Below are positions 11,829-52,512 of a stretch of DNA of 64,000 nucleotides, in pieces. The stretch comes from a virus. Lineage: Duplodnaviria; Caudoviricetes. The notes under the pieces are model-generated. The model did no database searches, had not been told where the DNA came from, and saw only the letters and a list, made by a program, of their open reading frames with translations. The translations under genes and the position numbers were made by a program. The DNA lies in the IMG/VR virus record IMGVR_UViG_3300032007_000054, positions 26,167 through 90,166 of that record; one strand, given 5' to 3'. Positions within the stretch are counted from its first letter, which is position 1, and every line of letters starts with the position of its first letter.

Positions 11829-13139
11829 ATGGGAAAAGTTTATGCTTCCGGCGGAAATGTGCAATATCTTAATTTACCAAATGAATATACTCAGGTTGAG
11901 TATATTGAAAGCAATGGATATGAATATATTGATTCCGGAGTTGTATTATCTTCAGCCACTACAGTAGAAGCTGATTTTCAAATGACTGAAAAAAAATATG
12001 GTTATGGAAATTATGTTTTTGGTTGTATGGATGCTTCTTTGGAATGTTCTTTAAGAACTGGAATTGAAAAAACAAATTATCGCGACGGAGAAGGTAGCAC
12101 GATATCTTATTCACAGACATCTGATATTTTTGCAAGAACTACAGTAACTGCAATACCAAGATCTGGAACTAATACTTCAAACAAGACTATGACAATTTTT
12201 AAATCTCGGAGACAAAGAACATCTGAAGGTCCATTCACATTAGAAGGATCCGGAAGGCTTAAATTATATTCTTTAAAGATGTATGAGAATGATGTTCTGA
12301 TCCGTGATTTTGTCCCATGCATTAGAAAATCTGATTCTGTTCATGGACTGTACGACATTGTTGGTGAAACTTTTTATATGAGTGAAATAACGATCCCATC
12401 AGAGTATCAGCAGGTAGAGTATATTGAATCTACTGGAACACAGTATATTGATACAGGATATAAAACAACAGTGAATACTGGATCTTATATAACTTTTATT
12501 ACAAGTAATAGTATTGGCACGAGTGGTCATGGTTCTATTTTTGGTGCCCGTAAAAGTACAGAAAAAAGATATCATCTTGAAACATGGACTCCTGATAGTA
12601 GCCGTTCAGGAAGTTTTTGGATTGGTGCAAATGAGGCTGTAACTGATCCTAAAATTATTCCAAATGAAAAACTAACAATTGCCCATTCTGTTACAACAAA
12701 TACCAGTGCCAGAAATGATAATAGTTATGTTAGCACAGCAGGGGTTTCTGTTTTATCAGATCCTTTATGCATTTTTGGTGTAAATAACGATACTATTATA
12801 GGTAATTTTTCAAAAACTAAATTATATGCTTTTTATATTTATGAAAGATATGATGTTGTTCATTCATATATTCCTGTTATTAGAAAAGCAGATCATAAAG
12901 CTGGTTTATATGATACTGTATCCAATTCATTTCTTACAAATTCTGGGACAGGCACTTTCTTATATGGAAATCCATTTCAGGATTTTAATGAAACTGGGCG
13001 TATAGTATTTCCACAGGTTGCTCATAAAACGAAGACAATTTACATTGGAAGAGACAGTGGTGTCGCTAAAAAAGTTAAAAAAGTATATATAGGTGATCCA
13101 AATAATGTTGCCCGTTTGTGTTTTACTGATGGTCAATAA
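11829..13139 (+). CDS. Tail appendage protein with duplicated lectin-like module
   Basis: Two repeats of Y.QVEYIES.G..YID.G ... (F/I)VP.IRK.D...GLYD.V; C-terminal KKVKKVYIG. Confidence 0.65.
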   Translation: MGKVYASGGNVQYLNLPNEYTQVEYIESNGYEYIDSGVVLSSATTVEADFQMTEKKYGYGNYVFGCMDASLECSLRTGIEKTNYRDGEGSTISYSQTSDIFARTTVTAIPRSGTNTSNKTMTIFKSRRQRTSEGPFTLEGSGRLKLYSLKMYENDVLIRDFVPCIRKSDSVHGLYDIVGETFYMSEITIPSEYQQVEYIESTGTQYIDTGYKTTVNTGSYITFITSNSIGTSGHGSIFGARKSTEKRYHLETWTPDSSRSGSFWIGANEAVTDPKIIPNEKLTIAHSVTTNTSARNDNSYVSTAGVSVLSDPLCIFGVNNDTIIGNFSKTKLYAFYIYERYDVVHSYIPVIRKADHKAGLYDTVSNSFLTNSGTGTFLYGNPFQDFNETGRIVFPQVAHKTKTIYIGRDSGVAKKVKKVYIGDPNNVARLCFTDGQ

Positions 13140-46260: not shown

Positions 46261-46469
46261 AAAAGATTACAAATCAAGTTGCTTATAAATGCGAAGTATG
46301 CGGACGTATTTATGATGAAGAAGAAAAAGCGCATAAATGCGAAGATTCACATGTTCTGCAATTACCAATGGCAAAAATGATTGATACCGATCTTCCGGGT
46401 ACATATCCGCAGTTCATTACTATGAAATTCTTTGATGGTAAATTGTTGATTTATAGGATTCTTGAATGA
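46257..46469 (+). CDS. Small zinc-finger-like protein
   Basis: YKCEVCGRIY..A.KCE..H. Confidence 0.65.
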   Translation: MKKITNQVAYKCEVCGRIYDEEEKAHKCEDSHVLQLPMAKMIDTDLPGTYPQFITMKFFDGKLLIYRILE

Positions 46470-46702
46470 AAAAAGTATATATTGTGTTAAAGGAACAAAA
46501 TTTTGAAAACAATGCTGAAGTCGTGATCGACAAAGTTTTCAAAGCAAGGCATTATGCCGATGAATACATCGCATCGCAGATCGAGCAGGATCCCAAAATG
46601 AGGGACCGCTATTATATTATCGGCCGAAAAGTAGAGCCTGAAAAGTTCTTTATCGGGCGGCATAATCTGGAAGAAAAAATGGACGGTTCTATTCTAGATT
46701 AG
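46466..46702 (+). CDS. Hypothetical protein
   Basis: MKKVYIV..VIDKVF pattern. Confidence 0.6.
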   Translation: MKKVYIVLKEQNFENNAEVVIDKVFKARHYADEYIASQIEQDPKMRDRYYIIGRKVEPEKFFIGRHNLEEKMDGSILD

Positions 46703-46777
46703 ATATTTCTATTCTAGGTTAGATCTGCGAGGACCTTAAAGAAAGCAATCGCAATTAAAACATAGCCTTTAATAGAA

Positions 46778-46890
46778 AGGATAGTAAAGTCTCGTAAGGA
46801 CGCTCGGTGGGTTTGCACCCTGATCGAGAGGACTCGTATTAGTGCAAAGGATACGATGACGAAAGAAGGAATTACGAATTTACTTATCCT
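46778..46890 (+). ncRNA. Candidate structured RNA with loop-loop complementarity
   Basis: Promoter motif at 46749; long closing stem; two hairpins carrying complementary TTTGCAC and GTGCAAA; no ORF. Confidence 0.55.
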
Positions 46891-46972
46891 GAAGCTTTTT
46901 CATTTCGTGTAATTTACATGGCCTCTAATGAAAGAGTACGTTGTAAGCGGCTCTAAATTATTAGGAGGAAAA

Positions 46973-47143
46973 ATGGAAAAGAAAATTGATTTATCAATGT
47001 ACCCGAAAGGGTCTGTTGTAAAAATGAACGCAAAAGGCGTTCAGTATGTCGAAATCCCGTACGATCCAAAGTACGAGGAAAAATTTAAAGGGGCTTCGTC
47101 CCCGAAAGACATCTGGACTAGAGTCCAGTTACGCACTTATTAG
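46973..47143 (+). CDS. Small cassette protein
   Basis: Motif 46904, AGGAGG RBS, terminator 47152. Confidence 0.7.
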   Translation: MEKKIDLSMYPKGSVVKMNAKGVQYVEIPYDPKYEEKFKGASSPKDIWTRVQLRTY

Positions 47144-47207
47144 TGCAAAATGAGCCCGCATGGGCTCTTTATTTTTACATCTCCTTTTACGAGAAAGGAG
47201 GACCATT

Positions 47208-47777: not shown

Positions 47778-48608
47778 ATGTCTATTATCTCTATGCTTGG
47801 CGGGGCTGAGGCCGGTACGGTAGAAGAACTGAATCAAAGACTGTCTGAGCTTTCAGAAAAGTTTGAAACAATTGCCGGAAATCTTAAAAATCTCGAAACT
47901 ATGACGGAAACCGTAAAACTTCGTGTTGAAGAATTAAGCAACAGTGTTGCATCCATCACCCATGAATGGAACGGCAGTGAAGAACAGGGAATGACAAAGC
48001 GCGTTGCCGATCTCGAACGGATGCAGAAGTACTTTCAGAGCTCCCATGGGAAAGCGCTGAATGATATTCACGACCTCAAGGTCGAACTGCATGGTCTTTA
48101 CAACCGTCAGACACCCCCTCCGGATGAGGAGCTTCAGCAGTCTGTCGATCGGAATCCGAAGAAAAAGGAATTGATCGATGTAGTACAGGAATCTGATTTC
48201 TCTCAATTTCGGAAACACAATCTTCTCAATACTCTTGAGAAGAATAATCTGACAACCTTTGAGAGTATCAAAGGAAAGACATTTGATGACCTTTGTGACA
48301 TCAAGGATATCGGTCCGGCATCAGCATCTCTTTTGGTCAAACTTCGTCAGAAGTATTACGGCGAAGTTGACAACGCCAAGATCATTCGGGAAAACATCCC
48401 GATGTACAGCATCCGTGATGTCGTTAAGGGCATGAAGCTCACGCAGGTCCAGAAGAGCCGGATCACCAATACTCTTTACAAGTATGGCGTAAATACATTA
48501 ACTGATCTTTCGGATCTTGAATATGAAGAGGTCTGTAAGATTCCGCATTTCGGCTCCGGTTCTGTGGCTGCCGTGAAACAGATCTACCAGAATTATATTT
48601 GGAGGTAA
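47778..48608 (+). CDS. Coiled-coil protein with two RNAP alphaCTD-like (HhH) domains
   Basis: LLNTLEKNNLTT..L.DIKDIGPAS and ITNTLYKYGVNTLTDL..V.KIPHFG.GS..VK. Confidence 0.6.
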   Translation: MSIISMLGGAEAGTVEELNQRLSELSEKFETIAGNLKNLETMTETVKLRVEELSNSVASITHEWNGSEEQGMTKRVADLERMQKYFQSSHGKALNDIHDLKVELHGLYNRQTPPPDEELQQSVDRNPKKKELIDVVQESDFSQFRKHNLLNTLEKNNLTTFESIKGKTFDDLCDIKDIGPASASLLVKLRQKYYGEVDNAKIIRENIPMYSIRDVVKGMKLTQVQKSRITNTLYKYGVNTLTDLSDLEYEEVCKIPHFGSGSVAAVKQIYQNYIWR

Positions 48609-52434: not shown

Positions 52435-52512
52435 AAAAGCCCGCAAGGGCTTTTGCTTTTTAAACTAAGGTCGTAAGTACGCGGCCTTTTATATTTTAAT
52501 GAGGAGATCATT

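What the first reader, a model, noticed from the sequence alone, without database searches (positions are those of the whole stretch)
46749..46900. Promoter-driven structured RNA with kissing loops and hammerhead-like core words
The closing stem AGGATA-GTAAA..TCGTAA / TTACGA..TTTAC-TATCCT encloses two hairpins carrying the 7-nt complements TTTGCAC (46812-18) and GTGCAAA (46842-48), which could form a pseudoknot. An alternative fold gives CUC, stem I GGTG/CACC, CUGAUCGAG, stem II, CGAAA: a type III hammerhead order with loop I-II pairing. However the core has one extra base and stem III is weak. It may be a variant ribozyme or a new RNA class.
Basis: partly seen in the sequence, partly recalled or inferred. 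Interest (0 to 1): 0.75.

Follow-up and report, generated by a model that had tools for sequence, protein, structure and literature searches.

The report
Phage small RNA with kissing loops
A 90-kb phage from gut or rumen metagenomes carries a conserved non-coding RNA of about 120 bases, not in Rfam, whose two arms have loops that stay complementary as their sequences change; it is not a hammerhead ribozyme and its function is unknown.

Summary
One sequence alone is not convincing: the fold z-score is only -0.8 to -1.5. Comparison with relatives makes the case.

I found the element in 15 loci (11 distinct sequences, about 3 lineages) from 85-92-kb relatives of this FP_oengus-like phage. It always lies on the gene strand, behind a copy of the phage's repeated promoter motif. 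A U-run and the next promoter follow it.

The fold is a three-way junction: a closing helix P1 and two hairpins, PA and PB.
- On the 13-locus alignment, 95.8% of pair cells are paired, against 29-43% in slid controls.
- 13 of 27 pairs show changes on both sides, against 0-3 in slid controls.
- The two 8-9-nt loops keep 5-7 Watson-Crick pairs in one register in every lineage, with compensatory changes at three positions.
- The junction strands (GGACG; AAGARGGAA) are nearly invariant.

The hammerhead reading fails. Rfam gives no hit even at E<=10, there is no stem III, and the "core words" lie inside covarying helix PA and are not conserved.

Best reading: a stand-alone structured small RNA of a new family. 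Whether the loops pair within one molecule or between molecules (as in phi29 pRNA) is open. Expression and transcript ends are untested.

The parts
46744..46777 (+). Phage promoter motif copy (…ATCGCAATTAAAACATAGCCTTTAATAG…) directly upstream of the RNA.
   Evidence: A position weight matrix built from 18 copies finds 23 sites of at least 12 bits on the + strand and none on the - strand of the 90-kb genome. This copy scores 24.3 bits. Every homologue has a copy at the same place. In L384 it is a different promoter copy in a different upstream context.
46774..46904 (+). Inferred transcript of about 120-130 nt. The 5' end is inferred from the promoter and the 3' end from the U-run. Neither was measured.
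   Evidence: It lies in the 270-nt gap between ORFs 46466-46702 and 46973-47143. It is the only stretch conserved between lineages.
46778..46788 (+). P1a, 5' strand of the outer closing helix. It pairs with 46879-46890, leaving U46884 bulged.
   Evidence: Seen in the folds. L161 has GGAGA/UCUCC and the L002 type has AAGG/CCUU at the same place; 2 of 4 outer pairs changed on both sides (helix 1).
46792..46797 (+). P1b, 5' strand (UCGUAA). It pairs with 46872-46877 (UUACGA).
   Evidence: 98.3% of cells are paired. Three pairs vary on one side only, through U-A to U.G or C-G to U.G changes that would be C.A mismatches on the - strand (helix 3).
46798..46802 (+). Junction strand J1, GGACG.
   Evidence: Identical in 14 of 15 loci. 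L388 has UGACG together with A to U in the last base of J3.
46803..46828 (+). Hairpin PA: CUCGGU/AUCGAG plus GG/CC, a 2-nt bulge, and loop A at 46811-46818 containing UUUGCAC.
   Evidence: 100% of cells are paired and 4 of 6 lower pairs changed on both sides (CAUCAA/UUGAUG in the second lineage) (helix 4).
46829..46833 (+). Junction strand J2, AGGAC.
   Evidence: Variable between lineages: AGGAU, AACGG, AAUGAUC.
46834..46856 (+). Hairpin PB: UCGUAUU/GAUACGA, with the 9-nt loop B at 46841-46849 containing GUGCAAA.
   Evidence: Three different stem sequences occur in three lineages, and 5 of 7 pairs changed on both sides (helix 6).
46812..46818 (+). Loop A bases that pair with loop B bases 46842-46848 (kissing helix K, 7 Watson-Crick pairs).
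   Evidence: The register is the same in all lineages, with 5-7 pairs each. Compensatory changes are UA/GC, UA/AU and GC/AU. The chance of at least 6 contiguous pairs between random 9-nt loops is 0.003.
46857..46871 (+). Junction strand J3, purine-rich: UGACGAAAGAAGGAA.
   Evidence: The core AAGARGGAA is kept across lineages with single-base exceptions (L382/L383, L388).
46895..46904 (+). U-rich tract (CUUUUUCAUUU), the presumed 3' end or terminator tail.
   Evidence: All homologues have a U-run (UUUUAUUUUUU or UGUUAUUUUUU) between the RNA and the next promoter. The consensus scan does not call it a canonical terminator.
46900..46933 (+). Next promoter motif copy, serving ORF 46973-47143. It marks the end of the RNA unit.
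   Evidence: It scores 32.8 bits against the position weight matrix. A second promoter follows the RNA in L002, L161, L199/L390 and L124 as well.

Best explanation
This is a gene for a stand-alone structured non-coding RNA of about 120 nt. It belongs to a family not in Rfam and is carried by a small clade of 85-92-kb FP_oengus-like siphophages.

Shown:
- The + strand folds into a three-way junction. Closing helix P1 joins the 5' and 3' parts. Two arms of similar length, PA and PB, branch from it.
- All helices are kept by compensatory changes.
- The 8-9-nt loops of PA and PB keep 5-7 Watson-Crick pairs with each other in a fixed register, although their sequences differ between lineages.
- The junction strands GGACG and AAGARGGAA hardly change.

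Inferred:
- The RNA is made from the phage's own repeated promoter, which abuts its 5' stem. It ends at the U-run before the next promoter, so 5'-3' pairing gives a nuclease-resistant RNA.
- The loop-loop pairing fixes the two arms relative to each other.
- The conserved purine-rich junction is the working surface and binds a partner, most likely a protein, as a decoy or regulator early in infection.

Covariation cannot tell whether the loops pair within one molecule or between two.
For: Conservation and distribution:
- nhmmer and covariance-model hits in 15 loci at 85-99 bits, E about 1e-30.
- None in 45 more distant relatives.
- The element stays about 1 kb upstream of the alphaCTD-like gene, while the small ORFs around it differ.

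Structure:
- 95.8% of cells paired against 29-43% in slid controls.
- 13 of 27 pairs changed on both sides against 0-3 in slid controls.
- 0 of 500 shuffles reach the observed covariation score.
- Loop-loop table.

Strand:
- 28 of 260 cells are G.U pairs.
- The promoters and all neighbouring genes are on the + strand.

Not coding:
- No ORF or peptide is shared between lineages.

Modular unit:
- L384 has the same RNA behind a different promoter copy in a different upstream context. The 5' stem starts 2-3 nt after the TATAAT-like box in both.

Not a known family:
- No Rfam hit at gathering score or at E<=10.
Against: - No expression data.
- Only about three independent lineages exist, and alignment A5 was fitted to the model, which flatters the pair counts.
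- Single-sequence fold energies are unremarkable (z -0.4 to -2.0).
- The U-run is not preceded by a canonical G+C-rich terminator hairpin, so read-through into the next gene is possible.
- A 6-7-bp loop-loop helix between two 7-8-bp arms joined by 5 nt may be sterically strained within one molecule. This is my own estimate from geometry, not a computation.
- Nothing identifies a partner or a function.
Confidence: 0.6

Rival explanations
1. Self-assembling RNA. The RNA would work as a scaffold. This shares the structure of the best explanation and differs only in cis versus trans pairing.
For: - The layout matches pRNA domain I: about 117-120 nt, a terminal helix, a three-way junction, and two arms with mutually complementary loops (PMC5066667, PMC4201828).
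- Covariation cannot tell cis from trans. A ROOL kissing loop first read as a tertiary contact turned out to be quaternary (PMC12286853).
- The 5-nt J2 linker makes a coaxial 7-bp cis kiss look strained (my inference).
Against: - No test of self-association was possible.
- The phage has an ordinary large terminase and portal, so a pRNA-type packaging role has no motor to serve.
- Intramolecular loop-loop pairing in three-way junctions is common (purine and lysine riboswitches, hammerhead; from memory).
Confidence: 0.12
2. Cis-acting leader. The structure belongs to the 5' part of a longer mRNA and controls read-through past the U-run, as a riboswitch-like attenuator or a put-like antiterminator.
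For: - It lies directly after a promoter and before genes on the same strand.
- The closing helix is followed by a U-run.
- Conserved junction bases inside variable helices are typical of aptamers.
Against: - A full second promoter copy lies between the RNA and the next ORF in every lineage.
- The downstream gene differs between lineages: 56-aa, 78-aa and 68-aa proteins that look unrelated by eye.
- No alternative terminator or antiterminator pairing is conserved.
- No riboswitch family matches.
Confidence: 0.15
3. Self-cleaving ribozyme: the reader's variant type III hammerhead cutting after C46805, or an undescribed class that uses the conserved junction.
For: - The words CUC, CUGAUCGAG and CGAAA occur in hammerhead order.
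- Small ribozymes are frequent in phage genomes (from memory).
- An invariant junction would fit a catalytic core.
Against: - No hammerhead, twister, pistol, hatchet or HDV-like model matches at E<=10.
- Stem III has no complementarity.
- The core words lie in helix PA and change with it: CAUUGAUGA, and GUACAA, GUAUAA or AUAUAA in place of CGAAA.
- No member has CUGANGA.
- Catalysis by a new class cannot be tested here.
Confidence: 0.04
4. Not a functional RNA: a DNA-level element (protein-binding site, origin or recombination hairpin), a small protein gene, or chance.
For: - It lies 1.6 kb downstream of the replication helicase.
- A stop-free frame of 61 codons exists on the - strand.
- Single-sequence fold statistics are weak.
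Against: - Compensatory changes keep the pairing while the peptide is lost. Only VIPS is shared, from the conserved GGAATTAC.
- Many G.U pairs favour RNA of the + strand.
- There is one copy per genome, which does not suit attC-like or iteron elements.
- Junction conservation exceeds that of the neighbouring ORFs.
Confidence: 0.05

Closest known systems
phi29-family prohead RNA (pRNA, Rfam RF00044)
   Same: A phage-encoded non-coding RNA of similar size (domain I is about 117-120 nt). It has a terminal helix formed by the 5' and 3' parts, a three-way junction, and two arms whose loops are Watson-Crick complementary. Sequence varies strongly between relatives while the structure and loop complementarity are kept (PMC5066667, PMC4201828).
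   Different: There is no sequence or covariance-model match. pRNA loops pair over 2-5 bp and one of them is a bulge loop; here it is 5-7 bp between two hairpin loops. pRNA serves the terminase-less phi29 packaging motor and is encoded near the genome end. This phage has a normal TerL and portal, and the RNA lies mid-genome among small early-type genes.
Type III hammerhead ribozyme (Rfam RF00008)
   Same: A three-helix junction with two hairpin arms whose loops contact each other, and words resembling CUGA..GA and GAAA in the right order in the window sequence.
   Different: The canonical core is absent from every member. There is no stem III. The words are not conserved and lie inside a covarying helix. 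No covariance-model match.
Purine and lysine riboswitch aptamers (three-way or multi-way junctions locked by an L2-L3 loop-loop interaction; from memory)
   Same: A closing helix P1, two side-by-side hairpins of about 7 bp with loop-loop pairing, and conserved junction nucleotides.
   Different: No covariance-model match. The junction strands have other lengths and sequences (5, 5 and 15 nt). A separate promoter for the next gene follows the RNA, and the downstream genes vary, so a riboswitch role is unlikely.
Other ORF-less promoter-driven RNA units of FP_oengus-like phages (tRNA-shaped RNAs; L012 and L028 units)
   Same: The same cassette grammar: phage promoter, purine-rich 5' strand pairing with the 3' part, then a U-run (earlier notes e1-5870161, e1-5870174).
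   Different: The folds and sequences are unrelated. Model R2 finds only the 15 loci.

Membership tests
Hammerhead ribozyme, type III | Match to the Rfam hammerhead covariance models | tested here: not met
   cmscan of 46600-47050 with permissive filters at E<=10 lists four chance-level hits, none a ribozyme. The whole window at gathering score gives nothing.
Hammerhead ribozyme, type III | Invariant core CUGANGA ... GAAA in single-stranded junction strands | tested here: not met
   The window has CUGAUCGAG, with one extra base. The second lineage has CAUUGAUGA, and GUACAA, GUAUAA or AUAUAA in place of CGAAA. The first word is the 3' strand of covarying helix PA.
Hammerhead ribozyme, type III | Stem III closing the junction next to the cleavage site | tested here: not met
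   The bases before CUC (AAGGACG) and after CGAAA (GAAGGAA) are not complementary. The helix that does close the junction is P1b, five bases further out.
Hammerhead ribozyme, type III | Self-cleavage | not testable with these tools
   Needs an in-vitro transcription and cleavage assay.
phi29-type prohead RNA | Match to Rfam pRNA model | tested here: not met
   No hit at E<=10.
phi29-type prohead RNA | Terminal helix, three-way junction and two arms with complementary loops | tested here: met
   This is an architectural resemblance only.
phi29-type prohead RNA | Host phage uses a phi29-like packaging motor, and the RNA is encoded near the genome end | tested here: not met
   The phage has a 580-aa large terminase (PHROG 9, E 3e-111) and a portal (PHROG 12). 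The RNA lies at about 73 kb of 90 kb.
phi29-type prohead RNA | Intermolecular loop-loop pairing giving dimers or rings | not testable with these tools
   Needs native gels, analytical ultracentrifugation or DMS probing with loop mutants.
Purine-type riboswitch | Match to the Rfam model and a ligand-controlled expression platform before a related gene | tested here: not met
   No hit. A second promoter precedes the next ORF, and the downstream genes differ between lineages.

The most novel reading that the evidence does not exclude
The RNA is a self-assembling building block. Loop A of one molecule pairs with loop B of the next, giving closed dimers or rings. Alternatively, the invariant junction is the core of an undescribed aptamer or ribozyme.
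Probability: 0.15. Interest if true: 0.8.

Novelty: new variant of a known kind. Interest (0 to 1): 0.5.

Why it matters
Phages of the FP_oengus group appear to carry several ORF-less cassettes that make structured RNAs from the phage's own promoter. This is one of the better supported ones: a compact fold with a covarying loop-loop contact and an invariant junction.

It offers a small, tractable RNA with three uses:
- a test of whether natural kissing loops act in cis or in trans;
- a reporter for the promoter that earlier notes of this scan attribute to the phage's untested single-chain RNA polymerase;
- a candidate early-infection RNA effector in uncultured gut or rumen phages.

Its narrow distribution and unknown function limit the immediate impact.

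Tried and rejected
- **Rfam.** Whole window at gathering score, the local region at E<=10, and four related loci at E<=0.01: nothing relevant.
- **tRNA or tmRNA.** ARAGORN finds none in the window.
- **DNA search of the phage collection** with the intergenic region: no match.
- **Small flanking proteins as probes in IMG/VR:** no relatives.
- **Loose DNA patterns.** They returned mostly chance matches. Further patterns in IMG/VR and in bacterial genomes gave nothing new.
- **Weak model hits judged spurious.** These are L064, L321, L322, L375, L168, L166, L163 and L179/L187. Some have mismatched helices or lack hairpin PB or complementary loops; others lack the promoter or lie in what looks like coding sequence.
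- **More distant relatives.** Model R2 finds no copy in 45 FP_oengus-like records beyond L002's own.
- **Sponge for the left-end anti-RBS RNA.** The best complementarity is a 7-mer, about what chance gives for two 120-nt sequences.
- **Nested alternative fold.** The loop A:loop B helix would enclose a 4-bp hairpin. It is present in all lineages but not in the same columns. It is less stable than PA+PB in four of five sequences tested. I leave it as a possible alternative conformer.
- **Small ORF.** The peptides are not conserved.
- **C/D-box or K-turn reading** of UGAUGA/CUGA: it rests on one Rfam snoRNA hit at E=8, and the two words are not opposite each other in the fold.

Full report
**Setting**

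The window is the right 64 kb of a 90,166-bp virus record rated complete. Its genes almost all lie on the + strand. It encodes:
- a large terminase, portal and head protease;
- a 1323-aa primase-polymerase fusion, an NrdD, a helicase and a 916-aa PHROG 4291 polymerase-like protein.

The helicase is 61% identical to that of Faecalibacterium phage FP_oengus.

The finding lies in a 270-nt gap between two small + strand ORFs, 46466-46702 and 46973-47143.

**The observation**

- The minimum-free-energy fold of 46749-46900 gives a two-part closing helix (46778-88 with 46879-90; 46792-97 with 46872-77).
- It also gives two hairpins, 46803-28 and 46834-56, whose loops hold TTTGCAC and GTGCAAA.

Taken alone this is not beyond chance. 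The z-score is -0.81, or -1.48 for 46774-46901. The region also holds many other 7-nt inverted repeats.

**Promoter**

The sequence just upstream (46744-46777) is one copy of a motif, roughly TCGCGAAA..TTTRCAT..CCTATAATG.
- A weight matrix from 18 copies finds 23 sites on the + strand and none on the - strand of the whole genome. Five of those sites were not used to build the matrix.
- A second copy follows the RNA at 46900-46933 and precedes the next ORF.
- Earlier notes of this scan list the same motif and attribute it to the phage's single-chain RNA polymerase (e1-5870167, e1-5870178). I confirmed the motif family but not which enzyme reads it.

**Relatives**

I found homologues by three routes:
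- nhmmer found one in the closest IMG/VR relative, L002, whose helicase is 79% identical.
- A DNA pattern from the two conserved blocks pulled three more from metagenomes: L161, L199 and L124.
- Homologues of three downstream proteins led to ten further loci.

With covariance model R2 all 15 loci score 85-99 bits.

They give 11 distinct sequences in about three lineages:
- the window type with L161;
- the L002 type;
- the L199 type.

Where contig length is known, the records are 85-92 kb. Forty-five other records of more distant FP_oengus-like phages, mostly about 60 kb, have no copy anywhere. The two weak hits there are full of mismatches.

**Structure**

Counts on the 13-locus alignment A5 with the three-way-junction structure:

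| Measure | This structure | 3' partners slid by 1-3 columns |
|---|---|---|
| Pair cells forming standard pairs | 95.8% | 29-43% |
| Pairs with a change on both sides (of 27) | 13 | 0-3 |

No shuffle out of 500 reaches the observed covariation score.

Helix by helix:
- PA is CUCGGU/AUCGAG in the window type and CAUCAA/UUGAUG in the others.
- PB has three unrelated stem sequences: UCGUAUU/GAUACGA, UACUGUC/GGCAGUA and GUUUGCC/GGUGAAC.
- P1b varies only through U-A to U.G and C-G to U.G changes.

Twenty-eight of 260 cells are G.U pairs. They would be C.A mismatches on the other strand, so the + strand RNA is the folded molecule.

Two cautions apply. The alignment was made by the model that carries this structure, and the changes trace back to few events.

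**The loops**

I aligned the loops by hand so that loop A position i faces loop B position 11-i. In that register every lineage forms 5-7 Watson-Crick pairs.

| Lineage | Loop A / loop B | Pairs |
|---|---|---|
| Window | UUUGCAC / GUGCAAA | 7 |
| L002 | CUGAAC / GUUCAG | 6 |
| L199 | GAACAU / AUGUUC, plus one more pair | 7 |
| L161 | UGCAC / GUGCA | 5 |

- Three positions changed on both sides: UA/GC, UA/AU and GC/AU.
- Two random 9-nt loops of this composition reach 6 contiguous pairs with probability 0.003, and 7 with probability 0.0004.

Covariation cannot say whether the pairing is within or between molecules. A ROOL kissing loop first read as a tertiary contact proved to be quaternary (PMC12286853). 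By simple geometry, a 6-7-bp loop-loop helix between two 7-8-bp arms joined by 5 nt looks strained in cis. The conserved bulge in PA could supply a kink. This is my inference.

**Junction**

- J1 (GGACG) is identical in 14 of 15 loci.
- J3 keeps AAGARGGAA with single-base exceptions.
- L388 changes the first base of J1 (G to U) and the last base of J3 (A to U) together. These bases flank P1b, which hints at a non-canonical pair.
- In the L002 and L199 types, J2 and J3 can extend PB (ACGG/UCGU, AUGA/UCGU). L389 turns the U.G of that extension into U-A. The window type lacks this extension.

**A gene of its own**

- The unit keeps its place about 1 kb upstream of the alphaCTD-like gene.
- The small ORFs beside it differ between lineages.
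- Each lineage has the order terminator or ORF end, promoter, RNA, U-run, second promoter, ORF.
- In L384 the same RNA sits behind a different promoter copy with a different upstream gene. The 5' stem again starts 2-3 nt after the TATAAT-like box.
- No ORF or peptide is shared between lineages on either strand.

I could not obtain expression data. The transcript and its ends are therefore inferred. The U-run also lacks a canonical terminator hairpin.

**Hammerhead**

This reading is rejected for four reasons:
- No ribozyme model matches, even at E<=10.
- The proposed stem III strands are not complementary.
- CUGAUCGAG is the 3' strand of PA and changes with its partner.
- CGAAA is not kept, and no member has CUGANGA.

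A new catalytic class cannot be excluded by computation.

**Other comparisons**

- The layout resembles phi29 pRNA domain I (PMC5066667, PMC4201828). However, the model does not match and this phage packages with an ordinary terminase.
- It also resembles purine-type aptamers. However, the second promoter and the varying downstream genes argue against a riboswitch.

**Verdict**

This is a real, conserved, structured RNA element of a narrow phage clade. It is most likely a stand-alone small RNA of a family not yet described, with a covarying loop-loop contact. Its function is unknown. I favour a protein-binding or decoy role through the invariant purine-rich junction, with low confidence.

Noticed in passing
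window 46687-46724: Tandem 18-nt repeat TTCTATTCTAGRTTAGAT (17 of 18 identical, 20 nt apart). Each copy has a palindromic core. The first overlaps the stop codon of ORF 46466-46702, about 25 nt upstream of the RNA's promoter. It is kept in L381-L383 but absent from L384, L161 and the L002 type. It may be an operator.
   Followed up: partly
L012:9249-9400; L028:3833-3975: More distant FP_oengus-like phages carry other ORF-less units behind the same promoter motif. Each has a purine-rich 5' strand paired to a U-rich 3' part around a multi-branch fold. Neither matches Rfam at E<=0.01.
   Followed up: partly
L022:12098-12171; L029 about 12338-12410: A tRNA (Rfam tRNA, 57.8 bits in L022) lies directly behind the phage promoter motif.
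   Followed up: no
window 52458-52481: The hairpin AAGGTCGTAAGTACGCGGCCTT lies between a terminator and the next ribosome-binding site. It shares GGUCGUAAG.ACGC with the P1b/J1 part of the L002-type RNA. Unexplained, and possibly chance.
   Followed up: no
window 46837-46848 and 47138-47149: An exact 12-nt repeat, TATTAGTGCAAA. The first copy is the end of the PB stem plus loop B. The second covers the stop codon of ORF 46973-47143, just before its terminator, so loop A could also pair there. Ten nt are kept in L382/L383 and lost in L381 and L384.
   Followed up: partly
window 47778-48608: A 276-aa protein with an RNA polymerase alpha C-terminal domain match (Pfam PF03118, E 2e-7). It is conserved about 1 kb downstream of the RNA in all lineages with enough flank.
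   Followed up: no
L390:3119-3247: In the L199-type genome, a 42-aa hydrophobic peptide cassette with its own promoter and terminator is inserted between the helicase-side genes and the RNA unit.
   Followed up: no
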